Source: Balanoglossus misakiensis (Eukaryota; Animalia; Hemichordata). From it: a DNA stretch of 64,000 bases. Position numbers and translations under genes: made by a program. The stretch lies in assembly GCA_040954595.2 (NCBI GenBank), contig CM082586.2, positions 1,053,630 through 1,117,629 on the forward strand, in the 5' to 3' direction. Shown here piece by piece: positions 4,927 to 37,873 of this stretch (its first letter is position 1; the number at the start of each line of letters is the position of its first letter). The notes beneath the pieces are model-generated. The model saw nothing but the letters and a program-made list of their open reading frames with translations, made no database searches and was not told the origin of the DNA.

Positions 4927-5637
4927 TCAATAATCTTGCACTAATTTAATCTTCTGTTCTTCCATAAAATCCAACAGTTTCTTTGATCTCAGTTCTATAG
5001 TTTTGATCATGTCATCAATTCTGACCTCCGTCATTTCCTCCCAGTAAATCTTGTCAGCGTAGAGAGATCGTCGGAGCATGCTTCGTAGAAGCCCTGATTT
5101 GATTATTGCGATGCTGTGTTCCGGTAATCTAAGTGGAGAAAGGAAAACAAGTGAAAACAACTGTTCACATATCCGAACAAAATCCCCCAAGAGGTTCGGA
5201 TTATCAACGTTCTTTTGCACTACTTCAATATCTCTAGTGAATTTTATTTTCCAAAGTGTGGTTTGTGATGTCCCACCAAGCGGCGATTTTTCAGAAAGGA
5301 AAGGTACAGCGCCCTCCAAGTCCATATTAACTTCTGCACTTACTCTTCCAATCCGGCCAACAGTTTGTAATTCAGAGCGTGAATACTTCTTCCGGGGTTG
5401 CCGGCATTGTCGATCAACACGAGTCTGCTGGTGTCTGTGCTCCGTACCATGATGTGAACCAGCATCAGTTTCTCTGGCTCGTCGTAACATTCCATGTTGA
5501 ATTTCTTCTGAAAACACCTTTCCCCTTCGCTAACGTTGTGATACCCACAGCAGTTTCTGTCAAGTCTGTCGTAGTTCTAAAATTATAGGTAAAACAAAAT
5601 CCTTAGTTACTCAGTAAACATGTGGTGGTGGTGGTGG

Positions 5638-5718
<81 letters not shown>

Positions 5719-6686: not shown

Positions 6687-9600
6687 TCTGACAAAATGTG
6701 GTGTCTTGATATGTTACCTGTAACGAGAAAGAAATTTAATTATTCCAAATATTCTATCAAAGTTTTATATTTGCACGTATAATGCAGTCGTGGCTTGGCA
6801 CAGTATGGTCGCTTCTATAGGCTACCTCTGGCCATGAGAGCTGCGCGTTGCCATACCAAAGCTGTTTTGTGCGCCTATTTGAACTGCGCACATATTTTCG
6901 ATGCCGAAAGTCGAAGGGAAAACATGGGTAAACTGCCTTTCATAGACAGATCACCAGACTACGGTAGATAATCATCGGTCACAGGCGATATACGTATCTA
7001 CAACGAGTATGACTGTATGCGTACAGGCGGAGAACAAAGATTATATGCAAAACGAGATACTAGTAAATATGCCATGGGTTCAATTCGGGTCAGAGGTTAT
7101 TAGCCGTGTGTACAAGTCTGGGTATAGAGAACTTTGAAGGCCAAAAGACGATAGAATCCCACCGTTCAACAACACATGAGCCTGAAAAATATCAAAATTG
7201 CCCCCAAAAATTGAAAAAAAAAAGTTGTCATAATGCATTAAATGTGTCTTGAATATATAACATAAGAAGACACTGGTGTCGAGATGGCATCAACAACGTG
7301 TTTTGGTCGATTCGTTTCTGGTCCGCATTGTCCGAAACAACTACGAAACCACTCAAATGACGTATACTGTTTGGTATAAACGGTTCAATGTGCGCACTAG
7401 CTACAGGCGACAACTTCAGCAATTCAGGAAAGACCTTGAAACACTCAGGCAGTCATAGTTCAAAGTGTCCACTGGTGAAATCTCTTCCGTTTCACCAATA
7501 CTGCGTCTCCTAATTTCAACTCCACGGCAGATTACATGAAACCGGACGAACTAGCTCGCTACCTGGCGTACGGTCTTACCTGCGTGATCTTCTGATCGCT
7601 GCCATGTTATTTCAATCTTCGCAGTCTGAGCGAGACTTGGCGGAGATTAAAGTCCAAAGGGTCGTGACCTCAGAAGGTCAACAACTGTTTACATCCACTG
7701 GTCGTCAGTTTATTTTGGTCAGAGTGTTGGGAGGTTCACAAGCATGGTCCCTGTCAGTGGTTCGACCGATGAGCGGTCAGGAAAGATTTTCGGGAAAAGC
7801 TTCACAGGCGACTCGTACCCGCAATCGGCAAAAAGGAGAGCAAGAATTTATAGTCAATCGCCACCACCGTGTCTTTCACAACTTCTCTCGTCTCAAAAGC
7901 TTCGCACACATTTCAGGCGTGCAAGTTCGTGATATCAAACGACTTCATCCTTCATATAGAAGCTGAGGGCGCTCGATATTATGGTCTAGCTGGAAGAGTC
8001 GCGTGAGAGTCATATTACACAGTAACGATGAAATAAAAGTCGTATAACATTCCAAAATAAATATCTGGACTTTAGTAGGACAATAAATGGTCATATTTGT
8101 GAAGATGGGACTTTGTCCGTATGTCCTGGCGAAAAGAAACCCCTTCAAAGACACGCATAAGCGACTGATGTGAGGGGTGACAACTGTTACAGTTTATTAC
8201 GTCTTGTCAGTCACGTACAGACCGTGTGGTTCTCTCATCTAACTGTGATCGAGGGTCATCGTATTAGAAATAAATGCGTTAGACAGATGGGAGACGGATT
8301 TGAAATTTCAAACTCTGTAATGTTTAATGTTATTTGCAAAATGCATTTCATTCTTGTTTCTCGCCGTATATGTCATGTGGAGACGGGTCGGACAATCGAG
8401 AAAAAATAATGGGCACCATCATTTTTATGACGAGAATTAATTATATACAGTTTGGCTACGAACAGCCTACAAAAAGTCGTCGTCTTTTAGAAGGAACCAA
8501 ACTACCACCCCCACTCAAGATTACCCCAAGACATGATCGACTTATACTTCACTTTTACTACCCCCGTCGTTTGCTATGTTCAGCTTCCGTTGGCAGATCA
8601 CCTTAGGTCGTTAAAAACCAGGTCATGGTCGTCTGGGCTCAAATCCAACTGCAGAAGTGGGACATGGAAGGTGATTTATTGCACCAGGCACAGATAGTCA
8701 CGGTAGCAGGCTCTGTGATAATTTTGCCATGGGGAATTCCTCGTCAAGTGCAAGTACTCAAAGAATTCCGGTCCAGAGTTTTCCAGCTGTTGCTAAAAAA
8801 GCACGGTTTGTGGTGATCGATGATGTTTTTGACCTTTCTCCTGGCAAGTTAGTCACGTGGAAAGAAAATCTTTTCGTCAGAATGCAGTGACAAATCGGTA
8901 AACTGGTTAAGTTTCGTCACGTGACTTCCTTTATTGTTTTTCCGTATGCGCAAGGCTCATTGAACTCCGAAAGAATTCGGCTGAAAGTGCATCGACACCC
9001 GTTGGTGTCATTTGTCTTTCGACAAAGCTATTACTGAACAACTATAAATATAAAACTCTTGAGTCAACCACACTCAAGTTTTCGATCAGTATTACAAGCT
9101 GTTGACCAGGTACACGTGATACATCTCCAAGTAAATCGGTGACTCGTTCCTTAATGTGGAAAATCCCCTTCGTCACATTTTATCAAAGTTGTTGACATCA
9201 ACTCTCAGAAAAGTTAGGAAATCCTGTGCTGATACACATACAAGTTCCAACAGAAAGTGACACGATTTATGGTGTAACCTAACATCATTGCTAGTGTGTT
9301 CAAAACAACTTTTGGAATCAAAATTTATCGCTTAAAGGTGGCGTTGGACCATCGAGGGCAGTGTCAGTCCAAAGCGCGCCTATTTTATTCCAGGGTGGAG
9401 CTATTGCTTTAGGTGTCAATGAGCATGGTGAGTGAATGATTTGCCTGTTACCCCGGATGCCGAGTTCCGTGATTCGCCTCGAGAGACGGATTTGTTCGTT
9501 ATGAGGTGAGCTCAAATTACACCGAGTTACAAAACAGTCCCGTTACTACCAGCCTAGTGTGAAAGCTTTTCCTCCTGAAGACGCTATCTCTGTCCGCTCG

Positions 9601-18076: not shown

Positions 18077-18359
18077 TTTATAAATAAGGGGTGGACAAAT
18101 GGTCGTAGCATATCATTCAAGGTTTCAGAATCACAATACATGTACCAGTACATGTATACCTTTCAACCGTGAAGCACACGGAAATGTACTGAGTGTATAT
18201 GCTCTTGTGAAGGGATATAAGCTGGTGGTCGTTCTTTTTATTTTACGACACCAATTTATTCATTCAGAATTTATGAAGTACGCCACGGAGACACTGTTTC
18301 CCATAAGTCACGAAATGTTTATTTTCTTTCTCAATGAACTCTTGCAGCCGCGGTGGTAT

Positions 18360-21300
18360 ATGCTCATCGGGGCACGCACCCTCGCCCTTGTGTTGGCTCT
18401 CGCCCTTCAAGTGGCCGGCCTGGTGACGTCACCTCCGACCGCATGTCCACCAGAGAAGTGCCCGGATGGGAAACACTGTTGGAGTCAGCCAAGGAATGAG
18501 GTTCGCATCGGATGGGGGTACAGGAATTTCGGTGTGTGTCTTTCTGAAGAGAACTGTGGACTTGCTACAGAACCTGACGGGGTCGATTTTACATATCAGA
18601 TGAATCCGGTCATTGTACAAGATGACGAAACGTGAGTATTGTTGTTACCGAGACGTCATCCACAATAGTTTCCGTTTCATATAAATCAAAAACAAAGAAA
18701 TGTGATACGGTAAAATTATCGTGGGAAAATAGATCCCGTTTACTGACTCGTGGTGTCATGGAGTATAATGTTAATTTTTGCACTGCTGTCCAGCTGGTGT
18801 AATCACACCACACTTCTCCACTGTGAACTAATGTTGAGAATGTCCCAAAGAGCGCATGCTCATTAAACGACGTAATATTGCATTGTGGCCTCGTTATCGT
18901 GACTCACGCCAGGTCACCGAGTTCTCCCACAAAACAATTCTGACACTTGATCCTTGCATCTTAAATTTTCCCCTGAGCATTCGAAAAAGCCTTTCAATTA
19001 TTGGCATAAACAGATGGCCGTGTCGATGTACTTAAAACTATCTGTATCATAAATATTTGCCTACACAATCTCATAAAACTGTCTTAAAAATGATGCTTCT
19101 TTCGCCTGTTTGTTACGGACGGTTACACCCATCCTTGTACAACTTCATATTGTAGCTCCAATTTGGTATACGCTAATGTAGTTGTGGAAGCAACTATATT
19201 AGCAATACAAGGGCTCTCAAGGAATTTGTGGCTTGACATTAGATCATTCAAAACTGGCATGCAGTCTGTATAATAATAGCTAGTACAGTTGCAAAGAAAT
19301 AAAATAATTATTGAGCAGGGCTGCGATATTTTAGTAACCCCCTTACCGTTTTCTTGTCTCTTTCTAGGGTGGTCTTCCATTCCATAGAAGAAGATTTATT
19401 TTTGAATCCACATGCGGTTTCAAAACAGACATTCGAGAATTGTAAACCGCTGTACGGGCTCCCCCTTGTTGATAACCCCACACGGGAGGATATTCCCGTC
19501 ACTTTGAATCTGGGAGCCAACTATTTCATTCACAAGGGTCGAAACAACAGCGTTTATGCCTGCGACTTCGGTTTAAAGGTTAAGATTATCCGTAAAAGTC
19601 ACAACTGCGGAGAGCTTGGACCAGATGGGTTGTGCAGCGGTCACGGGTACTGTGTCTCTGATCCGGAGGAGACATACAGCGACTGCACGTGCTGTGAAGG
19701 GTACGAGGGACAACACTGCGATCACTCCTATCGCACGTGTGCAAATTTCGTTTGTCAAAATGGCGGCTCCTGCCAGTCACATGACGGATCTGTCCGTTGC
19801 CTGTGTCCCCCAGGGTACACTGGGGAGGCCTGTGAACGATTGCTGCCAACGGAAAACAGCGTTAAAACTACTGTGCCCACAACCGCGAAGATGAATTCTG
19901 GTTTGCCAAAGGAGATAAAGGACTCCTTGCATTGGATACAGATACAATTGTACTTACCTGATCTCAATTGTCTCTGGTGGGAGGTAAGACTTGCCTTTTC
20001 CAGATGGCGTAACTGTTCTTTTGGGATTTGAATAAGCATTGTGGATAAGTTTGGTTCTTTATAACGAATTTGGCAATCACGGACAACCATTCGGAGGAGA
20101 GGGGTTGGTTGGTTAGTTGGTTGGCTGGTTTGTTGGTTGATTGGTTGGTTGGCCTCATGCCATCCATTTGGCAAAGCCTGTGAGTATGCATAAAGACGTC
20201 ATCTATCTCTCTTGCAGACAAATGATACTTTACATGATGCTGTGATGGAAGAGATATACGGATCAGTTAGAGATAATCTTTTACCTTCTGCTCTTGGACA
20301 TTGCTTCTCACGTGGAGCCCACTATGGTTTCGGGGATGACGAATCTACACTAGACTGTTACGGAGAGGGAGATGGAGCATTATTTAAGTAAGTTTCCAAA
20401 GTCAGACCTTGCTGGCACAGAACGGTCATTGTCAACCATACAGCAATGGTGTGATTTGAGATTTGGGAGTAGATTTGGTTTGTAACACTGAGTAAATGTG
20501 ACGTACGGAATCCATTATTTTACAGAGTTGGTATAGCATCTCCTAAGTCATCGTCCAAGACAACGGCGGAATTGCTCTGCATCATGTCCTACTATCTTAG
20601 AAACAACACGATAACATTCGATGTGTTCGAGATGTCGTTTATTGTGGCGTCCGATTTCCCTCTTTCTGTTCTGAGCACGAGTGCGCTGGACTGTGATGAC
20701 ATCGAGGTTTTTACCAGATTGTGTGTCGTCAACGAAACCAGCGGCAAGGAAAGTGAGTATAGCACCTGGACTCTGGCAACTGGCCATACATCCTTTTAAT
20801 AAGTCTAGCCATGCAAGTCTAGTTGTTAATCTGTTTAGCTCTATCCTGGTTTCATAACATGTTTTTATTATGCAGAAACTTCACTGGACGGAAATGTTGG
20901 AGTGACGACGAATTCCTCCTACATCCCTAAAGAGGGTGCTGTATCTTCCAAGTACAACAGAATGCCCTTGCTGTATCTGATTCTCTGCATAATGATCCCG
21001 ATATGTCTGCTATTGATGATCATCATGGCAGTTGGACTTATCGTCTATAAGAAGAAATACACAAAGAGTTACACGTAAGTCAGTAAGTTTTCACCGTTCT
21101 TGGTTCTCAATGGACATCAGTGTTCGGATTTGTTCTTTGAAATATACTTATTATGAATATGAGGGACAAATGTTGAAGCGCCTGCTGCTATTTTTTTCTT
21201 TGCTTTGTTTCCATGGCATTTAGATTTAAAGATAACATCAAGATGGCGAAACTTGGCAAACTGGAAGGGCGACCTCGCTCGATGGACGTGGAGACAGAAC

Positions 21301-21638
21301 TGTCACGCAAGAAGTACTTGTATGGGGGTCCTCCCAGTCCTGTTAGAGACGACGAGTTCGAACGACAGAGGAACGCCAGCGGCAGTAGTACCATCCCCGT
21401 GCCAGACAACGAGGTCGAATTCAGACCGGCGCGGACGCGGGTCGACTCCGGAACCAGCACGATACGGTCGAAAGGCTCCGATGTCAGGAGAATCTCTGAT
21501 GACTGTGTGCGAATTATCACCGTCAAACCGACAGAGGGCGCCAACGGGGAAGCCCACGGATTCGAAAACAAGGCGTTTCAATACATGGACGATAACCAGA
21601 GTGCGGACAGTGCTATAGAAGACAGTCAGTCTGTATGA
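18360..21638 (+). CDS. Type I membrane protein: signal peptide, EYS-N-terminal-like (cupredoxin/ephrin-like) domain, 2 EGF repeats, Cys-containing juxtamembrane domain, TM and cytoplasmic tail; ~632 aa
   Basis: Exons 18360..18631, 19368..19983, 20218..20387, 20526..20752, 20876..21074, 21224..21638, with GT-AG introns and consistent phases (2,0,2,1,2). Signal peptide MLIGARTLALVLALALQVAGLVTS. EGF repeats CSGHGYC..CTCCEGYEGQHC and CQNGGSC..CLCPPGYTGEAC. TM LLYLILCIMIPICLLLMIIMAVGLIVY followed by KKK. Overlapping AATAAA signals near 22158. Confidence 0.85.
20103..20152. repeat. (GGTT)n tetranucleotide microsatellite, imperfect, intronic
   Basis: ggttggttggttagttggttggctggtttgttggttgattggttggttgg. 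Confidence 0.8.
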
Positions 21639-22490: not shown

Positions 22491-23599
22491 ATGGCATCCC
22501 ATTACTTAGCATTCACGACGTTTTTATGTGGTAAGTAACTCTGGGAAAATTGCCTCAATGTATGAGTATTGTATTATTTATGATTTGAAACGTACCACCA
22601 ATGTCTACGTTCACTGATTTCGCATTATGTAGGAAGAATGTACTGACCATCGTTTTTTCGTTCAAGAGTCAAAAAGAAACACTTTTGATTTTTTTCTGCA
22701 TTTAAGGCGAACATGAACAATCATGTTTATGTGTCGGTGTGGTCTAGACCTGAACAAAACACAATCACTTTTCTCACGGCTACAGGTGTCTTTGCGCGCT
22801 TCCTGAAATACTAGACTAAATTTCCCCCCGTAGTATTTTCAGGCCCAGTGTTCTGTTTGACCTGCTTTCGTTGCTATGATTACATTGGCGATGACTTCTG
22901 CCGGAGAAATTACCCCAGCGCCTGGCAGCAAGATCCGTGTCCGCCCGATACTGGTAGTTGTTCGGTGAGTCACTCAACAAAAAATGTGTTCTGTCTTACC
23001 GTCTGCCTGTTAGACTATGACTATATTGCTTGTCGGTTAACATTTAATATATAATACACAAAAGGCTAAAACTTTTATTGATGTCCTGCCTTACAGGCTT
23101 CATATCGGACTCACAACTCAACAATAGTGTCATTCAGCCGCGGATGCCGTCCAACCGATAGTTGCACAGAGGGTTGTTTCATGGACTACAACCGAAGTAG
23201 GTCTTTTTCTGTTCTGGGTGAACTTCGTGTATAGAAGAGATATGGTTATAGGAACGCGAGATTTTACCATTTGTGGTAAAACATAGGCTAGAGAAAAGAT
23301 ACAGCTAACGGGGCTTTAATACCACGCCTTGTTGTGATAAACCCAGGTGGTTGATCGTTTTTTGTCTTCCGTTCAGCAAACAATGAATGATGTGTGCTTG
23401 AAGGCCACATACGTGGGAAAATGCCACGGGGGTCAAAGTTATAATTATACGTGTGTCGTTATTTGCAGATATAATGGAATGTATGACCTGCTGTGACTGG
23501 GATTTCTGTAATATGGGAAGTGTGTCAGGAACTGGTGACGTGGTCTTGCTACAGGCGCTGCTGTCTGTGCCAATTCTGACAATCTGGTGGAATTGGTAA
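22491..23599 (+). CDS. Ly6/uPAR (LU, three-finger) domain protein with predicted GPI anchor, ~133 aa
   Basis: Exons 22491..22530, 22834..22964, 23097..23196, 23469..23599 (phases 1,0,1). Signal peptide followed by LTCFRC, internal SRGC, the family-defining CCDWDFCN, then a small-residue spacer and hydrophobic C-terminus (VVLLQALLSVPILTIWWNW*). AATAAA at about 23816. Confidence 0.88.
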
Positions 23600-24181
23600 A
23601 CTCCAGCGCCCCCAGGAGACGCGATTTGACGGACTATAACCATGACGGGCAGCTGCCAATCGCACGTGTCGGCTGAGGCTTTTGGAGCAAAACTCAGATC
23701 AGCTCAACAGTCCTACATATGCCACTGATTCCCTCCCCCCCCCACTACCCCTCCCCAATAAGCATTGGTCCTCAGTCTGAACAAGTGGTAAATTTGAAGT
23801 TGGCCAAAAGTTTCAAATAAAGCTCAACGACATTATCATGCTTAAAAAAGACTTCAAGGTTTTTGTATCAATTGTATTATTTTAGAACTTAAGTTTCAAC
23901 TGCATGTCCAGAAATCGTCCAAGATAATTAGGACTTCATTACAGTGGCAATGATTACGTATAGATTGTAGTAATTGAGCAAATGATTGACAGAAAAAAAC
24001 ACTTCTTTTCATCTTATGAATACCTCGTTTTACAAACCCGACTATAATACCTCTACGTAACTCTCACCTTTGCATCCAAAAATGCATGAAAAGGCGGTTC
24101 AATACATGTCCTTTTTCGCGGATTAAGGTATTATTATTTAAATGTGACAAGTCGATCCCGTGAAGTCAGTGGAACGTCAAC

Positions 24182-26525
24182 ATGGCGTTGTCTGGAAAGA
24201 GTCGGTCCTGGAGCAAAAACGAGGTTAGTGCCAACCGAAACAGTTGTGTGATTCGTGCTTGTGTTGGTTGAATTTCACAGACACCGGACTCATGGCATCG
24301 GTCAGTTCCGTCCACTTTGACAGGTTCGTTGGGTGACGAGAAGTTTCTCCCTTTCTGTCCGTGCCCCAGTCTGCTGTCTGTCGACCACAGATTGATCTGT
24401 CGTTTCTCTTCACCTAAGCTTATCACTATCAATTCGATGAAAATTCGGAAATATAAACACGACTAAAACAAAAAGAGGTATCCGTTTGAATTTATACAAA
24501 GTCTTCATCCATTCTCGTATTTAACCTATCATGGCACATGGGGACTTTTTACCAAAGCTAAAACGGTAAACGACGTCGCCGCTGTACAAACCTTAAAATA
24601 TTATCATTTCACGCAGATAATGTCCCGTTCTGTCATCGATCTTATTTCTTTAAACATTCATCACAGTCGAAGATGCGTCATTGTCCACCATGAGCCAAGT
24701 TATCCAACTTTGTGATGATTTTATTCTTGTATATTTCGTTGAACATCGGCACAAACGAAGCCAATAATGTCAATGCCGTGTCTTGGTCTTCTGGATGACG
24801 TTAACTCTTCATCAAACGCCCAAGATTAACCTGTTCGGTCAATAACCTCATTGACGGCAAGAACCCAATTAGTCGGCGATTAGCGTTGTTTGTCATCAAT
24901 AACAACAGGCGATGTAGCTTTGTGAACAGTTCAGGAGTACAATAGCCAAGTACAATAGTACAATAGCCCACCCTCGGGCTTACTGTCCCTTTTCTAGAAC
25001 ACGGACTTCTCGTCAAACGAAAGCCACATGTAAAAATATGCACGCCATGAAGATCGCATCTCGATCTTTCGTGTCCATACAGTACATATAGTTTCCCGTG
25101 GGGCCTTCATCTTTGTCAAGTTTTTTTTTTCCTTTTGCAATCGATTGACTGCCTCTTTAGCTCATAAACTATAGACTACCGTTATATTCAATGACATCAG
25201 CCTTCATGGTTCGTCTACATTGTGTAGTCACTTTGCTTCGTAACCGTGACCATTTTTCGTTGTAGTTTTGCGTTCCTATTCAAGCGTTGAATCTCTTGCA
25301 GGTGAACTTTGACAATCCAATCTACGAAACTGGAGCCACTCTTCAGGTCAGTGAGACGGGACCATCGCTCGTCTTCCAAAACGAGGCAAACGAAAGCCTC
25401 AGAGTGCAGACGACAGAGGAAGCCATCAAATATTTGCGAAGAAAACGACGGACAAGAATCGCAGCTGTTGTGGGAGCCGCTTGTTTGATGGTCATCGCCA
25501 TTATCGCTGTTGTTCTTTATCTAACAGGTACTACTCATCGGATTTCAATGCCAAGATCTTTTCCTTCAACGGTAACGAAATCAAATGACCCATACAATGT
25601 CAGAATGATGATGTTATCTGTACATTTGTAGTATAGTCTCAAAGATGAAGAAACCGATTTTGGAAACTACAGAGACCATCAGGCAATGTCCATTTTATAT
25701 TATCACCAATAATTATTCTTCCTCAGTCGTTCGTTAATGTAGCAAATTTTTCTGGTGATCAACCTGATATAGCAGAACCTGTATTTTCAATTTTACAGTC
25801 GGTGGTGGCTTGAAGCAGTTCAGAGGAAACCCACCGGTTGCCATAGCAAATGAGAAAGATGATATCCAAGGTAAACCTAAATGTCTTTGTATAAATAATG
25901 AATTTCTATGCCTTGGCGCGTATAGAAGCACGAAGATTATTGAAGCTTAGGATCGTTTGTGAAAACAATACCTAAAAATCTGTTGTTGTTTTACCAGGAA
26001 ACAGCAGGTTTTTTGTCAACTTCACCGTACTCGAAGTAAACGGTGTTGCTGTAGAATACACAGAGGAATATGAAGATAGTAATTCCGAGGCGTTCCAAAA
26101 TTTATCCTCCGTCGTTGAGCAAGTGGTATGTATATTGGTTTGCGTTGCTTTTGGTGTAGGCTGGCGAATTTATTTTATTATATTTGTACCTTTTTGCGTT
26201 TGTTTCAACTCCTTAATACAGATCGCCGTGATCTTAGCGGATACATACCTGAATTTCTCTTCTTACACCCTTTCATCTTCTCCTTCTTTCTACTGCAGTT
26301 CGACTCAATATTTTTCAACTGTTCCATGGATTCGAAATATAACTCGACAACCGTTTCATCAATAAGGTAGGGAGCTTAAAGGGACAGGGTTGTCTGGTGG
26401 CCATTTTGTCTGTCAAAAGTTGGAGCGTTAACGCCTCGCAATAGGGGTATTGTAACCAAGTGGAGGAGTAGTCTGTGAACTTTTTTTTTATTTGGAAACA
26501 ATGCTTCGTGGTAGCAGATCGAGAC

Positions 26526-26562
<37 letters not shown>

Positions 26563-29500
26563 GACAGACACAGACAGACAGACAGACAGACAGTAATATT
26601 TTTTTAGTTCACTTACAGCATGGGAAGTGTTGTTGTAGAAGCCACAATCCTATTCGACCTGAATTCTAATATAAACACAGAAGATCTTTACGCGGTCTTA
26701 ACAGAAGGCCTGTCAGACGATATTTTGTCTAAATGGCTGAACGTGAACATCAGCACTCTTGTTCTTGATGGTGAGTGGCGATGCTTGCAACACACTTCGG
26801 GGATTGATTTTAAGAAGAATTTTTGGGCTCCAAATCGTTCAAGTCTTGGCTGTATTAAAGTGTGTGTGGTGTCGTTTAAAAAAAGAAACGGGGGCGTTCT
26901 CTGTCTTGTTTTCACTGAATCAGTACTTTAAATTTTCTCCTGATAGTTAACACAGAGATTGGTAGCCATTTTGAATGTCAAATTTTATAGAGTATAACAA
27001 GAAACAGGAGAGTATACATAGGAGAAAATACTAAAAAAAAAATATGTTGTTTAGTCAGGAAAATGAGTATTGATTGTCAATTTGATTGTTCAATTTAATC
27101 ACATTCACTCCACCTGGGCTTCACAGAGGCGCCAGACAGTCTCTGTCAACGGAGACGAGCGATGCTGGAGGCCAGGTGCGAGGCGAACACCACGTGTGTG
27201 GAAGTACATTGTCTGGCGAACGGCGATTTCAACCCAGTGCAGTGCATCGCCAGTGACTTTGCCAACGTGTGCTGGTGTGTCTCCAAAACGGGGGAGAGTC
27301 AACTGCAAACGGCAGTTTACAATTCTGTGCCGGACTGCAGTGCTTTCTTAGGTACGTGAAGTTTTGGAACTCTTGTATTCTTTAGTTTCGTCAAGGCAAG
27401 CAACCTTTGTGAGACAAGATGTCCCTCCAACCATGTTATGTTCAGAGAAGTCAGTCGTTCTTATACTGTCCCGGACCTTTTTTTTAAAACTAGACACCAC
27501 AACTCATCCGCCCTGGTTTGACGATGGCGTGCTTAGGAATAATCCCCCTTGGTTTGACGATGGTACGGGTAATCCCGTGTTTTTTGACGTCCCTCCGACA
27601 CCCCCGATGGCCACGCCGTGTCAGGTGCTCCGAGAAGAGACCGAATGGCAATGCTTGTGGCAAAATCGAGGAGAAGATTGTTGGATCTGTCAGTGCCGGC
27701 CAGACGGTGAATTCGAGGCGACCCAGTGCGTGGAGACGGCGAATTACTTGTACTGCTTCTGTATCGATGAGAACGGCCAGGCTGTGCCCGGGTCCGACTC
27801 GTTCGGCTATCGTCCAAACTGCCCTGGTTCGACAGACAACAGTAAGTTTTACAGTTAGTTATAGACTAGTCCACCAGTCGCTTGGTGATTTTTCGTCTTC
27901 ATATTTGGATGCTCAACACGTTTCGTGCATTTGCTAGCTTTGAGCAAGTTTCTGGTACTGAGCTAAGTTTCGACTACGGGGCTAGGCTTCTGGTTTCGGT
28001 TACCATCCACCAAGCGACTATCACCTGTCTATACTTTCAGGCACAGAGGTGGAGCGACCGTCCTTGTGTGTACAGCTGCATCAAGCATCACAGATGCAGT
28101 GCCGACTGGTGGGCGCGTCGAACAACAACTGCTGGGTGGCTGCGTGCGACGAGCGTGGTCAGTTCGAACCGGTGCAGTGCTCGCAGATTCAGCACTTGCA
28201 GTACTGCTGGTGCATCGACAGCGAAGGGATGACAGTGGAAGGCAGCGTCACATGGGGCAGTCGACCAAAGTGCGGCTTACGATTGGCACCGACGCCAAAC
28301 ATACAAAACCCTGCCCCATCTACACCCCCATCACAAGAACTTGAAACTGACGAAACCACAAATGACAATGGGTGGACGACAGGTGTGTCACTCTTTTGGC
28401 TTTTCGATCCACGTGTAAGTCATGAGTTGCCGTGGATCACTACATGCCTTCATATTTATTAACAATGTTATTTACATACAAGCTATTTATGTGTCTTAAT
28501 TTAATGCAATGTGGTTGTAAGAAGTTCTTGGTTGAATAAGTGTGTATGCTTAATTCGATTTTTGGTTATTTTCTTGTTTTTTATTCTGCAAAGGCCTTGC
28601 AATACTTTCTACTGAACTGGCCACAGAAGATGGAGCATATTCTACAGAGACAATAATGGCAACTGACCCGACTTCAGCGGAAAATTGGGTGGAAACAACC
28701 GAAGCGGTGACAAACGATGACGTTACGGCTGAGGAGCGTCAATTTTCCACCGTGGAAACAGTGACTAGTACGCAGGAGCCACAGGCGGAAGACGCGGCCA
28801 GGTGTTTTGTCAAACGCGTACAGCAGCAGCAGAGTTGCGATTTTGATTATGCGACTGAGTGTTGGATCCCGCGGTGCGATAGGTTCGGTGGCTTTCTTGT
28901 TATACAGTGTACCGCCTCCGTGAGTCCCAGCTGGGGTAATTGTTGGTGTGTCGATGAATACGGCAGCCCATCCCATAGTGACTTTAAATTTCCCTGGCAG
29001 ATAACCTGTAATGGTAAGTTTGTATCTATCTCATCGCACCCGTGGCTGAGTTTATGATATGCCGTGCTTGAAAATTTAAGCACGTGGGAAGATGAGCATA
29101 TCTGTATATCCATGACATTGGAAGATTTCTTCTAAATTCACCTATTTTTAATCATCATATTTCTATAATACAACTAATATCTCAGATGGACATACAAAAG
29201 CAATAGAGTAAGTTTTTTTGCTGAGAATGATAGATTTACACAAAATGCTCTACTCCATTTTATAGAACCACCTGGACAAAACATACATGTAAGATGATAC
29301 ATGTATATTGAAGGACCCTCACAAGAATAACATTAAGTTTTGCATCATTCTTTTCAGAAACTGATACATACGTTACAACGCCAGGTATGTACAAAGTAAA
29401 AATGCACGATATTGAATACAATGTGAATTCCTTCGGATCTTCTTTTATGTATATTTATAAATTACAGTTAATTTCTTTTTAGTATTAAAAATAATGATTA

Positions 29501-32500
29501 AAAAAAAACTTGTTCTACAGCTCCAACAGGCAACTGCAACGCATTCGAGTTTGAATGTCTGGATGGACTATGCATCCCAAGTCTTTTCGTCTGCGACGGA
29601 GAGGAAGACTGTGTAGATGGTGAAGATGAGAAAACATGTGATGGTAGGTTTTATTGTACCATTCAAACACGAATGCCTCACGTGTTGCACCTGCCATATA
29701 TCGACATCTCCGTCATGTCTCCCCCCCCCCCCTCCCAAATGTGGTGAGGGGTCTTCGCGAGTTTTGCGGGATGTCGGTTGATCTGAAGAGATGGGAACAC
29801 TTCTGTATCTAGGTAGTAGCGCCGATGATGAGAAACAACAACAACTCACTCACTCACCCTATCAATGCATTTTATTCCTCTACCCTCACAGCTTGCGCGT
29901 CATGGATTCTAAATAACTACATGTGCGCTGATGGAAGTTGCGTCATGCAACACCATGTTTGCAATGGCGTTCCTAATTGCCCAGATGGCTCGGACGAAAT
30001 CAACTGTGATGAAGGTAACATATACTTTTTTACAACATGCCTTCTGGTTATTAGTCGATTCCTGGCTGCCAATAAGTTCGACAACCATCTTGTTTGCCTC
30101 GATAGCTTTTCTCCATTTGTACACTATCCACACGTTGTAGTTTCTGTGAAGGGTCTAATAATTTGACGTTTATGCGTTTCTACCTCAGATTGCTTTGGAT
30201 TTTATCAGTTCAAATGTCCCACAACAGAGCTGCATGCCACTCAATGCACCGTCAGAGGGCAGCTTTGTGATGGCGTTGATGATTGTCCGGGTGGCTTTGA
30301 TGAGTTCGGCTGTACAGAAGGTATGTCATGTATCATTCCGCATGTGTGATGCGCCTTTTTTTCTTTAGAGGGCGCCCTTCCAAAACATTGCGTTTTCTCC
30401 AAGCAGACGATGCGAAAGCGAGGACAATAGCTTCAGAGACATTAAATATGCATTCTCGAACTCAGTCCATATCGTATAAAAATAAAACTATTCTTTTAAC
30501 TTGGACGTGTGCTGTGCACTATCACACATTGGCTTCACTATTTTTGTTCACTACAGAGTGTAAAGGCACCCGAGCTTGGTGTGAAGCTGACGGATTTTGC
30601 ATGTTTCGATTTGAATTTTGTGATGGTTTTGTCGATTGTTCCGACGGCTCCGATGAAATTGGCTGCTGTAAGTACATTTCCACCTCGTACACACTTTTCC
30701 TTTATATCTTGCACGTTCACATACTCGATCTAATGCGCGGATTCCTTTCCTTCCCTACGCACGTCTCTCACTTCCATCGTCATCCCAATAACGGATTATA
30801 AGATTCCCACCAACTTTGCATACATCGTCCTCTAAAACTCTTCATTTGTTCGATTTGTATGGACAGATTGCGGCCCGGAGTTTTTCACATGTGGCGATGG
30901 GACCTGCCTCGATTCGTACTTTATATGCGATAACTGGCCACAGTGCCCAGATGGGTCTGATGAAGACCCCGATGTATGCACAGGTAGGTAATTTGTGTAC
31001 TGAAGCGCCCTCTCTCCCCTCACCCTCCCCTCCCCTCCCCCAGTGTCACTCATAATTGTAAATGTGATGTTGGAGGACCTAGGGGAAAAGCTTTAAACGC
31101 TGATTGTATGTTCGACAAGAACTTTCCCGTATTCTACTTCAGGATCTTGTTTCAAGGAAACTGGTTTGGTTTGTGGCGATGCCAAGCAGTGTCTACAGCC
31201 GGAACAAATTTGCGATGGGGTCAACGACTGTGACGGTGTCCCATTTGATGAAATGTTCTGCATGCCTGGTAAGAAAATAAATACTAGTCTTGTTCTAGTA
31301 TCATCGTGTGCATGTAATTAAATAGACAAGGCGGACTGGCAAGGCAGAATTGTCAAATCAGACAAATATTGTAATAAAAGGTGTAGATTTTTTTGAGAGA
31401 GGGAAAGTCAAACGCTTTTAGAGGGTTATTTGAGAGGGGAAGTTCTAAACCTTGCACCTATTCTAGTTTCATACAAAGCGAGATCTCGCAATGAGCGGAG
31501 AATCATCTATTGTACGTCACTTTTTTAATCACCGTCTTTCTGTATTGGTCCAGGTCCCAATCCATGCGGCAACTATGAAGTTTGGTGCGGAGGATGCTTT
31601 CATCCCCGACGTATTCTGTGTGATTCGTTTGCTGATTGTGTGAATGCGACTGACGAGATTTACTGCAGCGGTTAGTGCAATATAAGCTTCATTTGTCAAA
31701 TATATTATCTCCTCCCTGTACAGCGAATTTCAGCTACGTTTTCTCACTAGTATTTGTTGTGTTCGTTTTATTGTTCAGTACAATTTTAACAAAACAGAAC
31801 CGACCCCTTAGTGCGTTTGTGTATCAAACAGACCATAGAAGAGCATCGAAATGAACGTTGCCTCGGTGCTTTGAGCGTCAATTGGTTGCAAGCGCATACT
31901 AACATGGTAACTAAATAAAACTACCTGCTTTTCGTGGTGCCATTTTAAGATTTGAGTTGTTCCCGCGACCAGTTCCAATGCAATGATGGAGTATGCATTC
32001 CACTGAACTGGGTATGCGATGGAATTATTGACTGCACATTTGAAGAGGATGAAAACTTGGACTGCGCAAGAGGTACAGATGCTTTCCTAGTTGTCTTTCA
32101 TTGGGGATTTTCAGTCAGTATAACAGAGTGATCCTTTCCGAACGGCTCATGCTATATGTCGCGAGTTGTACCCAAATCTCGCGTATACAGGCCTATACTG
32201 GCGGGTGGTATTGCTTAAACACATGATCCTCTGGCAGCATCGTATCATGATCTTAGCCTACCGAAAATATTGATGATACCCTCACACGCGGCTCTGGCAT
32301 CAACACTATAATTGTCAGAGATCACCACCCCTCGAGAGCAGGCTAAAAACCACGTCCTTATTTAAATATCACTTTATATATTCTTGCGTCAGTCCCCGCA
32401 CGAGCGACAACAAAACTACAAAAGTAGTTCCGGCGTCAAACTCGTGTGCATACAGGTATGGCATGTTTTTGGTATTGCACTGAGTGGAAAATCATCTATT

Positions 32501-34505
32501 GTACATCAAAGACCGGTGTTGTAATAATACGTGAGAAATGATAAAATCTATATCAATTGAAGATTTTGCAGGTTGTGATCAACCAAATGTAATTACTTGT
32601 GGTGAAGATTACGGCTCGGCTGATTACTCCTTCAGTAGATGTATACCAATTGAATGGCAGTGTGATGGAATTGAAGACTGTGACTTTGGTGAAGATGAAT
32701 TCTACTGTGGTGAGTTTTAGATACCAACTTAGGAAAATGTATAGTAAAACCGAGTGCACTTACGTGATATGACAAAGGTGCAAGTCGGTGTTGAAGTATC
32801 GCCATAACTGTATTAGCCAATTGGTACATTTTGCCTACAAGCTGGCTGCAATAATTGTAGCCCACAATTATTGCAGCTAGCCTACAAGCATGCATATGCA
32901 TGGTGGCGGGGTGTTCTGTTACAACTGGCAATTCTATTGCCAGAGGTAAACCATAAAAACACGAAATGTCCACTACGAACGAGAAAATTGGGCGATGATT
33001 GTCTGTGTGTGCAATAAGGCGACTTCACAAAGAATATAGGGGCTATAAGTGTCACATACGTTCTCTTTCAGACTACATGTATTCATTTGACGAATTCTGT
33101 GGAATAATGGAAGCCCCCTGTTCCGACGGGAGTTGTGTTCCTGTGCATTTTATATGCGATGGAAAGACAGATTGTGCTGATGGATCAGACGAAGAGAGTT
33201 GTGGTAATTATTTAACTGAAGAAATTTTAATGTAAAATAAGCATGCGCCAAATCAAAAGAAGTAGTTTTGATTATTTTCATTGATCCCACAGGTTGTGAT
33301 GGTGATACAGATGGCGATTCACTAGTATACTACATGTGTTTAGGATCTGGATGTATCCCTGCAGACTGGACTTGCGATTCGTTTGTTGACTGTCCGCTTG
33401 GAGATGATGAAGACAACTGTCCAACACCAACTCCGGGTAGGTTGTTAACATGCCCACAGGGTGCACAAGGGGAGGGGGATAGGGGAATCACCCCCGGGTA
33501 TGGCTGATGTCCCCAATAACTCAGTACACATATCGTAGAAACATACATGACTTCACTTTATTGGACTCGCGTACGAAGCCACTCAGGTATGCTTGCAACC
33601 ATAAAGTAGTTCGTCACATGTTACCAAGTTAGTTATGTAACACTTCTGAACGCCATATGACTGTGTGTGGACAGAAAAACGCACGGATGTACACACATTC
33701 ATACATTGTACATATAAAACTAGCACACAATGTAATTGAAAGCCTACACCAGCGGTTCTCAAATCCAGTCAATATTTTACGCCATTGAACATGTTTTACC
33801 ATCACATTCCAGCTTTTCAGTGTGAACCGATAACGGTGATGGGATGTGAAACCATTGGTTACGATTTAACGAGCTATCCAACACCTTGGGGTATTCTTGA
33901 TCAAAACCAAGCGAATACATTCATGGTCCTTTACAATGCACTGTCAAGTTTTCAGTGTTCGCCCTTGTATACTCTATTTGGATGCAGAGTATTTGCTCCG
34001 AAATGTGATGATGGTAAGCAAAAAAAAAACTACTCGCGAGGGACTGGTCAGTTTTCCTAGGCGGGGAGGTAGATTTTGCGTGCATGTTAATACTCACAAT
34101 AAGACACACTGATCCTCCTACTGAGCACCAAACCATCGCCCCTCGCCTCCCTGGAGAAACTGACTAGTCCCTAAGACCGATCTCAAAATGTGATATAGTG
34201 ACATTAAGGCTGAGTAAGTTTGCATTCCCCTTTTCGCCATCAAGCAATGCACCAGGGAAGTCCCCAGCCGTAACAATTTCCACTCGCACTACAATTTACC
34301 TTCATTCCTAACACATTTCTTTTCAGGACAAATAATAAAACCATGTCAGGAAATCTGCCTTGCTGTCAAAGATGGGTGCTACAACCTATTTGCCTATGCG
34401 TTTGGAGGTTGGCCATCAGAACTCGATTGTGAGGCTTTCCCGCCCGCCAGCAGATTCACCCCATGTTTCAGTCTACGGGAGGCAAATACGATGGTTACAG
34501 ATTGA
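24182..34505 (+). CDS. Type II transmembrane mosaic protein: cytoplasmic FDNPxY, TM, SEA, 4x thyroglobulin type-1, 11x LDL-receptor class A, Frizzled CRD (corin/MFRP-like stem, no protease domain); ~1271 aa
   Basis: 24 phase-consistent GT-AG exons. N-terminus/TM: 24182..24223 (first exon, least certain), 25302..25527 (TM), 25799..25870. SEA: 25998..26125, 26299..26366, 26619..26770. TY: 27127..27351, 27494..27841, 28041..28382, 28594..29013. Micro-exon: 29358..29384. LDLa 1-11: 29521..29643, 29892..30014, 30189..30320, 30557..30667, 30867..30983, 31143..31268, 31554..31670, 31950..32072, 32572..32709, 33072..33203, 33293..33436. Fz CRD with 10 Cys: 33813..34013, 34327..34505 (stop TGA 34503-34505). 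Confidence 0.88.
26521..26592. repeat. (GACA)n tetranucleotide microsatellite, intronic
   Basis: Run of gacagacagaca... about 26 nt upstream of the acceptor for the SEA GSVVV exon. Confidence 0.9.
34039..34172. mobile_element. Short MITE-like element with imperfect ~31-bp terminal inverted repeats, in the last intron of the mosaic gene
   Basis: The left end agggactggtcagttttcctaggcggggagg matches the reverse complement of the right end (agggactagtcagtttctccagggaggcgagg). 134 bp, non-coding, no clear TSD. Confidence 0.55.
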
Positions 34506-35712
34506 GAAACTGTTGCAACACATGATTCAACAATCTCACAGACACAGCACCACACCAGTTAAAAGGGACACCAGCAGTAACTTCTGGCTTTATTTTCGGT
34601 ATTTTTGTTCTGTGTACCAATTGCAATTTCTTGTTCTATTCCAAATAATAGAACAGGAAAATTGTCACGAGTTACTTCTGTTGAGTGTTGATATAACCAA
34701 AATTTCTTGTTTTACAGTAAAACTATAATGCATATCATGCTTATTTTGCATGGGTGGGTTTAATGGTAACTGGAATGCGTACACTTTCGCAATAACTAAA
34801 CCAACACAGAATACAACTGATGTAATTTTTATTGACCATGATGAAAATAAGGCTTCATCATTAATAGCCTGAAGAGTACACTTGTTCGCAGGCTCTCTGT
34901 ACCTCCATCCCCAAAAAACTGCTGTAGGCAGTGTGTGGTTTAAGCAGACCACTACAATTTGTTGTTGGATCCAATCACATTGCACCATTTAGACAGGTGA
35001 CTGCCTGCTGTTTATACAAGCCCTGCCTCGACTTGTTTGATCTAGATTTGCATTCGAGTATACAGACAGGAAGTTTCCATATATCGGCAGAATTTTGGAC
35101 TTTATTTCTGCCTGCAGTCGTTTTGGGGGGATGGAGGTCGGAGACCTGCAAATGACTATACCTTACTATTAAAAATATTCTAAACTTCTGACAGAAAATT
35201 GTGTTTTATTACGAAGATTACCAACCATGCGGAAAAGTCTCTATAGAAAAATCAATTTTGTACTTTTGGGGGTAAAAGAGTTAACGGCCATGAAAGATAA
35301 ATATATTATTGCACATTATTTGAAAACTGCTGAATTTCTGTCCAACACAAAAGGAACCCTTGGTTCACATAAAAACGCATCGAGACATCACCTGTCCTGA
35401 TTTTGCAATACGGCTACAACATCCTGGTCATATAACATATACTTCATGTTCTGTCCACTTGAGAAAAATAAACCCTTTTCTGACTACCAAAGCACCCAAA
35501 TGCAGTCGCTATGCCCAGTCACAACTATAGACGGCATTCCACTCACATCGTGGTCAGTTTAGTTACCCTGTTTTTATTTCCAGCACCAACCAATTCACAC
35601 TAAGAGTCCAGAATAGACATTGATTCAGAGAGTGCCATATGGCTGGCAACTTGAAGACAACACAGTCTTGTGATGGATAGTACTTCTTTTTTAGGTCCGT
35701 GGATGGACGTTT

Positions 35713-37379
35713 CTATTGGTCTTTATCTTTTTGTTGTCTGGCTTGTTCTCTCAACTGAGCTCTTTTCACTTTGATCAGCATCTGGCCAGACACTATCACC
35801 CACATGACCTGGGAAAGGGAGAAGAGAACACATGTACATGTATCATTGATGAACATGTTGACTATTTGGATATTGTTGCAGACTGCTGGAAAACTTTGCC
35901 AATGTGTGTACGGTAAACTTTGAAAAATGCATCTCTCTGCTTCCTCAGAGTATTTGACATCAAAATGGCGCCCTCAAGAGGCGATTATGCAGTAAACGTT
36001 TTAACGCTGATGTCATAATGCCTTTCTATGACCTGGCCTGTTACTGTATTGGCATTTATTTACAAAAAAATCAGGTTTAAAATTTTGTGACTTACCACAA
36101 TGACTAAACAGTTGGCAAGTATTGGAACAGAAAAGACCATTGATATGAACAGGCCATTGGAGTCAAAATACTGCTGTTTGGCAAATTTCCTGAAAGAAAA
36201 TTAGGATTTTGATTAAGTATTGGGTATGTGCAAGTTGTGTTGGTACAAATGTTCTTGTAACCTGTGTGAATGTGTGAGAAAGCCTTGCTGGTGAATGTAT
36301 ACATGTACATGTACTCGTGATTTTGGGAGAGTGAGTGCAAATTTTGCCTTCAATTGAGTTTTTCACAGCCAGGAATTAAAGACAACTAATGAAGCAAAAC
36401 TGTTCACGACTGAAATATGGTCACTTACATGTAATGTGCTGCACAGAGTTCATTGATGGTCTCTGAGAAAAATACAAGCACCACTGCAACAGAACATTTG
36501 AAAAAAAAAATATCTTTTGAATATTTCCTTTCATAATCAAATTCGCTTCCAAGAGTATGAATGCAACTGCAGGGACACAGATGGTGCCCTTTAGAAGAAT
36601 TGTGTGTGTGAATCTATCAAAACTGATCACATCTGTGCAGGTAGTGGTACTTACATAAGACAAAGAAGTATACAGCTTGAACAGTGCTGAGCTTTCGGGA
36701 AGCAATTGTCAATATAAGGCAGAGTGTGTGGAAGACAATCAAACCGATGAGGAATGGTTCGGACCAGTCAATCTGAGAACAAGAAAAAATAGATAACATT
36801 GCAGCACCAGCTCAAATGTATCATTCATAGATATGAATGTTAATTATTACATGTAAATAAATCATGTAATTTTGATGGTAGGATAAGTTAAATTGGTCCC
36901 TTTGAAGTGGTCCGGTTGCTGAGACCCAGAAACACACTGATGTTTATTTCCATGTGCTAGGCTAGTTTAATGCTGTTGTTATTGTTATTGTTTGGAGTTG
37001 TGACGATCAACATTACGTACAAGGCATTGCACTTGCTCTTGATATTCTGGGATCGTAGTGAGTTGCGTGCGGCGATGAAACGTCGTAGTATCACGACTAG
37101 CCGGCCAGCCAGCCACTAGTAAGCGAAAGCATTGTGATGCCTGCTGTACACATGTACGAGGATCAGGGACTGCATCACAGTGCTTTCGATTGGCATTCTC
37201 TGATCGGAACATACCATGCATTTCACTGGAGGTAAATGACAAAGCATAATAACAGACAAACTCCCTTATATTCCCGCTCGCATATATCATTTCTAGAAAT
37301 CAGCCGAACTTACTGATTCGAAAAACGACCATAGTCCATCGATCTTGTCGACACGTATCGCATCTGCGGGAGCCGCCAT
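35713..37379 (-). CDS. TMEM18: Transmembrane protein 18, 142 aa
   Basis: Exons complement(37314..37379, 36655..36772, 36429..36483, 36096..36189, 35713..35808), GT-AG, phases 0,1,2,0. Motifs [48 protein letters not shown] and a basic coiled C-terminus match the TMEM18 family and its 5-exon layout. Confidence 0.95.
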
Positions 37380-37873
37380 TTTACTTCCGGTCTGGAGGGC
37401 CACATGGGATAGATCCGAAACCTGCTGTGAAGTGTCTTTTGATTGGTCGGTGTCAGTTTCATAATTAAGCCGCAAACCTAACGTTGTCGATGACGTTGCA
37501 TCGTTTCTCCCCACCGTAGTACAAGTTTTCCATTTCAAGTTTTTAAAGGCCAGAAAAGTATCGTATGCTTGCACTATTAAGCGACCAATTATCTGTTATG
37601 TGAGTGCATGACAAAGGCGCATTGACCAATAAAAAAGAAGTTGATTGAACGCTTAGGGCTATGTGTATTGTTGTGGTTGTGTTCTGGGACGTGCTTTCCC
37701 ACTGTACGTATGCATTATTGCTGTACTTGGGGCCCCGAGCTGAATGCTGACAGTGTGTGGACGCCGCGTCGAATATTCACGGGAGGACGGGGTCTTCTTG
37801 TACACTAGACTTAAAAAACAGGAGGCGAACAGTCCTCTAGAATATCAGGGCAGCGAGTTGAAGAATCTCTAAG
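37372..37873. promoter_or_regulatory. Probable bidirectional promoter for TMEM18 and a divergent + strand gene
   Basis: The minus strand reads CCGGAAGTAAAATGGCGGC: an ETS/GABP core abutting a YY1 motif that overlaps the TMEM18 ATG. CCAAT/ATTGG boxes at about 37442, 37586 and 37626, TGACGT at about 37490, and CpG enrichment. Confidence 0.55.

What the first reader, a model, noticed from the sequence alone, without database searches (positions are those of the whole stretch)
24182..34505. Protease-less type II mosaic receptor: SEA + 4 thyroglobulin-1 + 11 LDLa + terminal Frizzled CRD
Seen: a full 24-exon reconstruction ends in a stop right after a complete 10-Cys Fz CRD. Only 1.2 kb remains before the convergent TMEM18, and no trypsin motifs (IVGG, TAAHC, GDSGGP) were seen. 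Established comparators: corin (type II, Fz+LDLa+protease), matriptase/enteropeptidase (SEA+LDLa+protease), MFRP (type II, CUB+LDLa+terminal Fz, no protease) and C. elegans EGG-1/2 (type II, LDLa only). I know of none that combines SEA, TY, a long LDLa array and Fz. Inference: an endocytic scavenger/decoy receptor that could bind Wnt or lipidated ligands (CRD) and lipoprotein-type cargo (LDLa) while inhibiting cathepsins (TY).
Basis: partly seen in the sequence, partly recalled or inferred. Interest (0 to 1): 0.8.

Follow-up and report, generated by a model that had tools for sequence, protein, structure and literature searches.

The report
Protease-less corin-style surface receptor
This gene encodes a membrane protein built from the same parts as corin-type surface proteases but with no protease domain, matched part for part by an unstudied acorn worm protein, and it likely catches extracellular proteins at the cell surface rather than cutting them.

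Summary
A 24-exon frame (1,271 aa, all GT-AG, 20 of 23 introns phase 1) reads tail-TM-SEA-TY x3-stalk-TY-LDLa x11-Frizzled CRD-stop. No trypsin or SRCR lies in the window; TMEM18 converges 1.2 kb away. A colinear Ptychodera flava protein (RefSeq XP_070533558 and isoforms, 'uncharacterized', 47-63% per folded domain) also ends after the CRD in 4 of 4 isoforms. The front end (NPx[YF] tail, TM, SEA with GSVVV, the SEA exon split) is that of invertebrate type II serine proteases, so this is best read as a protease-less variant of that design. Related designs exist (MFRP, a Lingula SEA-Fz-LDLa protein, bee SPH56/fly CG1632), none with TY. Likely role: a self-cleaving, sheddable ligand-capture protein whose best-kept binding repeats are LDLa 1 and 8-11. 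The genome is rich in shuffled mosaics. No RNA run was listed. New variant of a known kind; moderate interest.

The parts
24182..34505 (+). Whole gene model, 24 coding exons, 1,271 aa type II membrane protein
   Evidence: colinear ortholog
24182..24223 (+). Exon 1 (14 aa, cytoplasmic); the least certain exon
   Evidence: donor score 8.3, rivals at 23719 and 25191/25206; not supported by ortholog
25302..25527 (+). Exon 2: cytoplasmic tail and transmembrane helix
   Evidence: 63% identical to ortholog, tblastn E 1e-19
25308..25325 (+). FDNPIY, an NPxY-type motif; LRQPIY in the ortholog (PIYET kept)
25404..25448 (+). Invariant 15-residue juxtamembrane tail segment (aa 49-63), likely a partner-binding site
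   Evidence: 15 of 15 identical to ortholog; function inferred
25458..25523 (+). Signal-anchor helix aa 67-88, basic residues on its N side
   Evidence: only hydropathy peak
25799..25870 (+). Exon 3, 24-aa spacer, optional or doubtful
   Evidence: phase 1-1, absent from ortholog
25998..26770 (+). SEA domain in exons 4-6 (25998-26125, 26299-26366, 26619-26770), phases 1/0/2/1
   Evidence: PF01390; 61% to ortholog; same split in protease paralog L021
26623..26637 (+). GSVVV, predicted self-cleavage site
   Evidence: identical in ortholog; motif per PMC6491460
27127..27351 (+). Exon 7, TY1 (8 Cys)
   Evidence: PF00086 E 1.7e-7
27494..27841 (+). Exon 8, linker and TY2 (9 Cys)
   Evidence: PF00086 E 7e-9
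27688..27690 (+). Ninth cysteine of TY2 (C370), at the place of the family's Pro; kept in the ortholog, predicted unpaired
28041..28382 (+). Exon 9, TY3 (8 Cys) and start of stalk
   Evidence: PF00086 E 3.2e-13
28280..28790 (+). Ser/Thr-rich stalk, about 100 aa, 28% S+T (379 aa, 34% in ortholog)
28594..29013 (+). Exon 10, end of stalk and TY4 (8 Cys)
   Evidence: PF00086 E 1.1e-8
29358..29384 (+). Exon 11, 9-aa spacer, optional or doubtful
   Evidence: strong splice scores but absent from ortholog
29521..31670 (+). LDLa 1-7, one per phase 1-1 exon (exons 12-18); only repeat 1 has the full aromatic-acidic fingerprint in both species
31950..33436 (+). LDLa 8-11 (exons 19-22), all with the full W/F + D + D + DE fingerprint in both species
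33813..34505 (+). Terminal Frizzled-type CRD in exons 23-24 (33813-34013, 34327-34505), 10 Cys, then stop
   Evidence: PF01392; 52% to ortholog
35168..35472 (+). Candidate poly(A) signals (ATTAAA 35168, AATAAA 35467) before the TMEM18 stop
   Evidence: untested

Best explanation
The gene encodes a type II membrane protein with the front end of corin/nudel-type surface proteases and no catalytic domain, and it likely works as a ligand-capture protein whose outer part is predicted to be released by self-cleavage. Shown: domain order, topology signals, absence of a protease, conservation of every module and of all TY, LDLa and CRD cysteine counts in a second species. Inferred steps: (1) the SEA domain cuts itself at G|SVVV, leaving anchor and ectodomain non-covalently joined; (2) the TY block and O-glycosylated stalk hold the LDLa array and CRD away from the membrane, the ninth TY2 cysteine possibly linking two chains; (3) calcium-loaded LDLa repeats, above all 8-11 beside the CRD at the far tip, bind basic surfaces of protein ligands, with the CRD adding a second, probably non-Wnt, site; (4) bound ligand is removed by uptake through the tyrosine-containing tail or by shedding of the ectodomain. 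The ligand is not identified.
For: Colinear ortholog ending after the CRD in 4 of 4 isoforms. GSVVV in both species; the motif is the MUC1 self-cleavage site (PMC6491460, passages). NPx[YF] tails in 8 of 21 other SEA-bearing type II proteins fetched (8 of 13 when 8 matriptase-type rows are set aside). The SEA of own-genome protease gene L021 has the same three exons and phases. LDLa region strongly acidic in both species (D+E about 100, K+R 14-16), full fingerprint in repeats 1 and 8-11 of both (read from the motif strings; fingerprint definition recalled). Protease-less relatives exist: Lingula P0131 has SEA, 5 Fz, 11 LDLa and no trypsin.
Against: No ligand, expression or transcript was seen. 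NPxY is QPxY in the ortholog, so clathrin-type uptake is not conserved in its strict form. No YWTD propeller, so LDLR-type cargo release is missing. 6 of 11 repeats lack the full fingerprint here. Descent from a protease gene is not shown: the CRD's sister changed between two trees and no placement was rejected, and SEA exon structure may be shared by SEA domains generally. Only one ortholog was found.
Confidence: 0.42

Rival explanations
1. It is a decoy or adaptor for the genome's many LDLa/Fz-bearing membrane proteases: it binds their substrates or the enzymes themselves without cutting.
For: Many type II or LDLa/Fz/trypsin genes in this genome, several on the same contig; shared SEA exon split; a PIY tail triplet in paralogs L023, L025, L034 (about 0.007 expected per 65 aa, motif picked after the fact); a dead-protease precedent, SPH56/CG1632.
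Against: The CRD does not group with the paralogs' CRDs (22-26% identity to the two compared; p-AU 0.065, not rejected) and is split by an intron where 43 of 45 other CRD matches run in one frame. MAFFT aligned the tail motif with NPx[YF], not with the paralogs' DPIY.
Confidence: 0.17
2. It is the membrane anchor of an extracellular coat (egg envelope, mucus or cuticle) built from calcium-cross-linked LDLa arrays, a releasable barrier in the manner of cell-surface mucins.
For: SEA + S/T stalk as in MUC1, described as a releasable decoy barrier; stalk length varies 100 vs 379 aa; 8 loci of a TY-WAP-LDLa family, likely secreted, in the same genome. EGG-1/2 and sea-urchin envelope LDLa proteins are recalled, not checked.
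Against: No expression data; the stalk is short for a mucin; individual repeats keep their own sequence across species (48%), which suits specific ligands more than a generic coat.
Confidence: 0.18
3. It is a Wnt sink or co-receptor acting through the CRD.
For: Complete 10-Cys CRD at the most distal position, 52% conserved; matches to Frizzled and Sizzled structures; grouping with Frizzled/sFRP is not rejected (p-AU 0.25).
Against: Outside the Frizzled/sFRP group in both trees; PN..H, F.PL and GF.WP of the genome's Frizzleds are PT..I, Y.AL and GG.WP in both species; Wnt relevance of such CRDs largely unknown.
Confidence: 0.1
4. Its main job is to inhibit cysteine cathepsins at the cell surface through the four TY domains.
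For: Four TY domains, 47-63% conserved; matches to saxiphilin and p41; an unusual disulfide pattern did not stop IrThy from inhibiting.
Against: Gly 0 of 8, Pro 2 of 8, extra Cys 8 of 8 in the L1 loop, against 30, 38 and 0 of 45 other TY domains here.
Confidence: 0.08
5. The model is wrong: two genes, or a protease exon lies further on.
For: No RNA was laid on this locus; the ortholog records are predicted models; three small exons are unsupported.
Against: Unbroken phase-consistent frame with introns under 500 bp after exon 2; same single-chain order and end in another species; no strong donor after the last CRD cysteine (best 2.3 vs background 95th percentile 5.1); no protease nearby.
Confidence: 0.04

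Closest known systems
Ptychodera flava uncharacterized protein XP_070533558.1, -559.1, -561.1, -562.1 (P0128, P0019, P0129, P0127)
   Same: Whole domain order, 4 TY with 8/9/8/8 Cys, 11 LDLa (10 in two isoforms), terminal CRD, GSVVV, tail 15-mer.
   Different: Stalk 379 vs 100 aa; QPIY for NPIY; lacks exons 3 and 11. No function is annotated.
[quoted passage not shown]
   Same: Type II, SEA next to the membrane with GSVVx, LDLa array, CRD (corin), NPx[YF] tail (invertebrate forms), SEA exon split.
   Different: No SRCR or trypsin domain; four TY domains and a stalk are added; the CRD is last.
MFRP (Polypterus P0060, partial)
   Same: No protease, LDLa directly before a terminal CRD; type II topology recalled.
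   Different: CUB domains, no SEA or TY; CRD 33% identical and not grouped with it (p-AU 0.09, not rejected).
Lingula anatina XP_013390977.1 / XP_013385766.1 (P0131, P0097)
   Same: Type II, NPxF tail, SEA, Fz and LDLa, no trypsin.
   Different: 4-5 CRDs interleaved with LDLa, no TY, no GSVVx; P0097's terminal CRD is likely a split model, since the next accession carries the rest.
Honey bee SPH56 / Drosophila CG1632
   Same: TM-SEA-Fz-2LDLa, catalytically dead (Table 1 row of PMC1761132).
   Different: Keeps a dead protease domain; 2 LDLa; no TY.
LDL receptor family (LDLR, LRP8, SORL1)
   Same: LDLa arrays and an NPxY-type motif (LDLR motif recalled).
   Different: Type I with YWTD propellers and EGF; here type II and none of these.
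C. elegans EGG-1/EGG-2 (recalled; search found no paper)
   Same: Type II, LDLa array, no enzyme.
   Different: No SEA, TY or CRD, as recalled; not tested here.

Membership tests
Type II transmembrane serine proteases | N-terminal signal-anchor, type II topology | tested here: met
   single helix aa 67-88 after basic cluster; topology predicted
Type II transmembrane serine proteases | Stem of SEA/LDLa/Fz/CUB/SRCR modules | tested here: met
   SEA, LDLa, Fz present; TY is foreign to the 21 SEA-bearing comparators
Type II transmembrane serine proteases | C-terminal trypsin-like domain | tested here: not met
Corin | Two CRDs, eight LDLa, SRCR, protease | tested here: not met
   one CRD, 11 LDLa, no SRCR or protease
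Corin | CRD groups with corin Fz1 or Fz2 | tested here: inconclusive
   p-AU 0.34 and 0.08
MFRP | Terminal CRD, no protease | tested here: met
MFRP | CUB domains in the stem | tested here: not met
   no CUB hit
MFRP | CRD groups with MFRP | tested here: inconclusive
   not grouped; p-AU 0.09
LDL receptor family | LDLa ligand-binding repeats | tested here: met
   11 repeats
LDL receptor family | YWTD propeller with EGF repeats, type I topology | tested here: not met
LDL receptor family | NPxY in the tail | tested here: inconclusive
   present here, QPxY in ortholog
Thyropins (TY cathepsin inhibitors) | TY domain with QC and CWCV-type core | tested here: met
Thyropins (TY cathepsin inhibitors) | L1-loop Gly and Pro (proposed, PMC10889554) | tested here: not met
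   Gly 0 of 8, Pro 2 of 8
Thyropins (TY cathepsin inhibitors) | Measured inhibition | not testable with these tools
   needs protein
Frizzled/sFRP Wnt-binding CRDs | Ten-cysteine CRD | tested here: met
Frizzled/sFRP Wnt-binding CRDs | 7TM or NTR domain after the CRD | tested here: not met
   stop follows the CRD
Frizzled/sFRP Wnt-binding CRDs | Wnt binding | not testable with these tools
   motif changes only
Self-cleaving SEA proteins (MUC1, matriptase) | GSVVV-type motif in SEA | tested here: met
Self-cleaving SEA proteins (MUC1, matriptase) | Cleavage observed | not testable with these tools
   needs protein

The most novel reading that the evidence does not exclude
A conserved acorn-worm pseudo-protease: a surface-protease stem that gave up its enzyme, took on a new four-disulfide TY subtype with a free cysteine for covalent pairing, and acts as a self-releasing hub that captures the ligands or enzymes of the genome's expanded LDLa/Frizzled protease family, or tethers its secreted TY-WAP-LDLa proteins, using a Frizzled domain turned to a non-Wnt partner.
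Probability: 0.2. Interest if true: 0.65.

Novelty: new variant of a known kind. Interest (0 to 1): 0.42.

Why it matters
If true, it shows that the stem of corin-type proteases can persist as a protein in its own right across distant species, and gives a clean system for asking what non-Frizzled CRDs and non-inhibitor TY domains do, both open points for human corin and MFRP. Its reach is limited: one ortholog, in a lineage whose genome shuffles these modules freely (1,284 LDLa candidates, 64 TY and 47 Fz matches).

Tried and rejected
RNA: no RNA holder listed for 25200-35190, so no reads were laid; this is no evidence either way. Homolog search with the TY3 exon against longer proteins: 0 of 75 candidates. 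Search for fragments of the ortholog's SEA-TY region among shorter proteins: 0 of 7,998 scored; weak evidence of absence, so the family's range is open. ESM Atlas: no usable hit for the whole ortholog, generic TY clusters at <=0.81 for its TY block. PDB: no match to SEA exon 6. CRD phylogeny: quick tree of 108 rows put the pair weakly (82) with Lingula and other SEA-Fz proteins; careful tree of 37 of those 108 rows (long, redundant and unnamed rows left out) put it weakly (81/75) with PKD1-like CRDs; five AU tests rejected nothing (p 0.065-0.34). Paralog hunt: best other CRD 35%; no other locus examined joins SEA, TY, LDLa and Fz. The TY-WAP-LDLa family was considered as donor of TY4-LDLa and set aside: its TY lacks the extra cysteine (read by eye). 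The DSSDE apical-sorting motif of corin is absent from the 11 motif strings. Literature searches for the combination returned 0, 1 unrelated coral paper by listing, 0, 2 insect surveys, 11 listings for the fly gene names and 0 for EGG-1/2; subscription papers and supplements were not seen, and the supplements of hemichordate genome papers could list this protein. No structure or complex was predicted: with two sequences it could not settle disulfides or ligands.
Full report
Observation. Reading 23,000-37,500 and snapping exon ends to AG/GT gave 24 exons that join into 3,816 nt with one stop, at 34503-34505: a 1,271-aa protein. All introns are GT-AG; 20 of 23 are phase 1, and each TY and LDLa module has its own phase 1-1 exon. 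Pfam on single exons found SEA (exon 4, under the cut-off), TY in 4 of 4, LDLa in 10 of 11 (7 over the cut-off) and Fz in the last two. There is one hydrophobic segment, behind a basic cluster. The window has no trypsin motif and no trypsin, SRCR or CUB profile hit. The nearest listed trypsin match on the contig is about 0.42 Mb off on the other strand (150 of 157 listed). TMEM18 converges with its stop 1.2 kb downstream. An upstream Ly6-like gene, recognised by eye, ends near 23,600-23,820 and bounds the start.

Independent support. A search of 1.84 billion representatives with exon 23 returned 126 proteins, of which one stood out at 60%. It is a 1,513-aa Ptychodera flava protein annotated 'uncharacterized', with three further isoforms. 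It has the same order, TM-SEA-TY x3-stalk-TY-LDLa x11-Fz, and ends after the CRD in 4 of 4 isoforms; two isoforms each skip one LDLa repeat. Identity is 47-63% per folded domain, 36% in the stalk. These are predicted models, not reads. Exons 1, 3 and 11 of our model have no counterpart. A full-length search with it found 69 proteins, no other with TY; a search for fragments found none. The window is therefore likely from a hemichordate, and the family has two known members. No RNA run was listed.

What the front end is. Among 21 other SEA-bearing type II proteins fetched, 8 carry NPx[YF] in the tail and most end in trypsin; an example is Branchiostoma P0151, with FVNPAF, TM, SEA with GSVVA, 8 LDLa and trypsin. 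In the window's own genome the protease gene L021 has its SEA in three exons with the same 1/0/2/1 phases, its first exon ending on the same residues. So tail, TM and SEA follow the surface-protease design. Versions without enzyme activity already exist: Lingula P0131 (SEA, 5 Fz, 11 LDLa, no trypsin), MFRP, and SPH56/CG1632 (TM-SEA-Fz-2LDLa-dead protease; table row in PMC1761132). Whether this gene lost a protease or was assembled without one is not shown: the CRD pairs firmly only with its ortholog (100/99), its sister changed between trees, and AU tests rejected no placement with MFRP, corin Fz1, corin Fz2, local protease paralogs or Frizzled/sFRP. It is split by an intron, unlike 43 of the 45 other CRD matches in the genome.

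Module by module. Tail: FDNPIY here, LRQPIY in the ortholog; PIYET and a 15-residue juxtamembrane stretch are invariant. SEA: GSVVV in both; in MUC1 this is the self-cleavage site that allows shedding (PMC6491460, passages). TY: 8, 9, 8 and 8 cysteines in both species. Counting back from the second canonical cysteine, 45 of 60 other TY domains located in 20 fetched loci could be scored: Gly at -6 in 30, Pro at -2 in 38, Cys at -5 in 0; here the figures for both species together are 0, 2 and 8 of 8. PMC10889554 (passages) names an L1 Gly and Pro as possibly important for protease recognition, and saxiphilin shows them. The same paper shows that an odd disulfide pattern can still inhibit, so inhibition is doubtful, not excluded. 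The ninth TY2 cysteine sits at the Pro position and is predicted unpaired. LDLa: all 11 keep six cysteines and the DE cage; the aromatic-plus-acidic ligand fingerprint (definition recalled) is complete in repeats 1 and 8-11 in both species (read from the printed motifs, whose column labels were shifted by one). CRD: ten cysteines, 29-32% to the genome's Frizzled/sFRP-type CRDs, with several family motifs changed alike in both species; PMC6747125 (passages) describes the Wnt relevance of such domains as largely unknown.

How it most likely works. Shown: anatomy and conservation. Inferred: SEA self-cleavage yields a non-covalent two-chain protein; TY block and stalk lift the LDLa array; repeats 8-11 and the CRD form the ligand-binding tip; ligand is cleared by uptake or by shedding (0.42). 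Rivals: anchor of an LDLa-based coat (0.18), decoy for the local proteases (0.17), Wnt sink (0.10), cathepsin inhibitor (0.08), wrong model (0.04).

Context and novelty. The genome holds 1,284 LDLa candidates, 64 TY and 47 Fz matches, PKD1-like genes with Fz/LDLa arrays, many LDLa/Fz/trypsin genes and 8 TY-WAP-LDLa loci. New mosaics are thus expected here; what sets this one apart is its conservation in a distant second species and its derived TY subtype. Searches of the held papers found no description of the combination; supplements and subscription journals were not seen. It is not a member of the protease, MFRP or LDLR families, since a defining feature of each was tested and not met. Verdict: real, undescribed as far as searched, a new variant of a known kind, interest 0.42.

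Noticed in passing
L004/L005, L066-L072 with L074, L077, L079, L080 (G000 C15, C27, C29, C24, C16, C7): Eight loci of a TY-WAP-LDLa family; in the four followed to the end there are about 14-20 LDLa repeats and no further known module; a signal-peptide-like exon is seen by eye in three. WAP confirmed by Pfam in 8 of 8. Likely secreted; possibly coat or mucus proteins.
   Followed up: partly
L008-L009 and L013-L014 (G000 C1); Ptychodera P0012: Polycystin-1-like genes (REJ/GPS/PLAT-like stretches recognised by eye) with N-terminal arrays of Frizzled CRDs and LDLa repeats; P0012 has 12 CRDs.
   Followed up: partly
L021-L034, L046-L050 (G000 C14:5.87-7.73 Mb, C2, C7, C22): Expanded set of LDLa/CUB/Fz/trypsin genes; three share a DPIYQY tail motif.
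   Followed up: partly
window 22815-23596 (+): Ly6/quiver-like gene recognised by eye (CC...CN end and hydrophobic tail), poly(A) signal at 23816; no Pfam hit on three single exons.
   Followed up: partly
window 18084-21635 (+): Type I membrane protein with EGF repeats, a TM segment near 20950-21050 and a long tail.
   Followed up: no
window 4930-6713 (-): FAM198/GASK1 gene (PF15051, E 8e-43).
   Followed up: no
window 35713-37390 (-): TMEM18, convergent; its 3' UTR shares 1.2 kb with the finding's.
   Followed up: yes
window 27510-27570 (+): Short in-frame duplication (PPWFDDG twice) in the TY1-TY2 linker, absent from the ortholog.
   Followed up: no
window 37600-64000: About 26 kb with no hit to the local trypsin, SRCR, CUB, SEA, TY, LDLa or Fz profiles and no open frame over 135 aa; not scanned against Pfam.
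   Followed up: no
L039 (G000 C12:11.02 Mb) and L040 (C23:6.23 Mb): Clusters of 4 and 5 Frizzled CRDs in tandem without nearby LDLa or trypsin hits.
   Followed up: no
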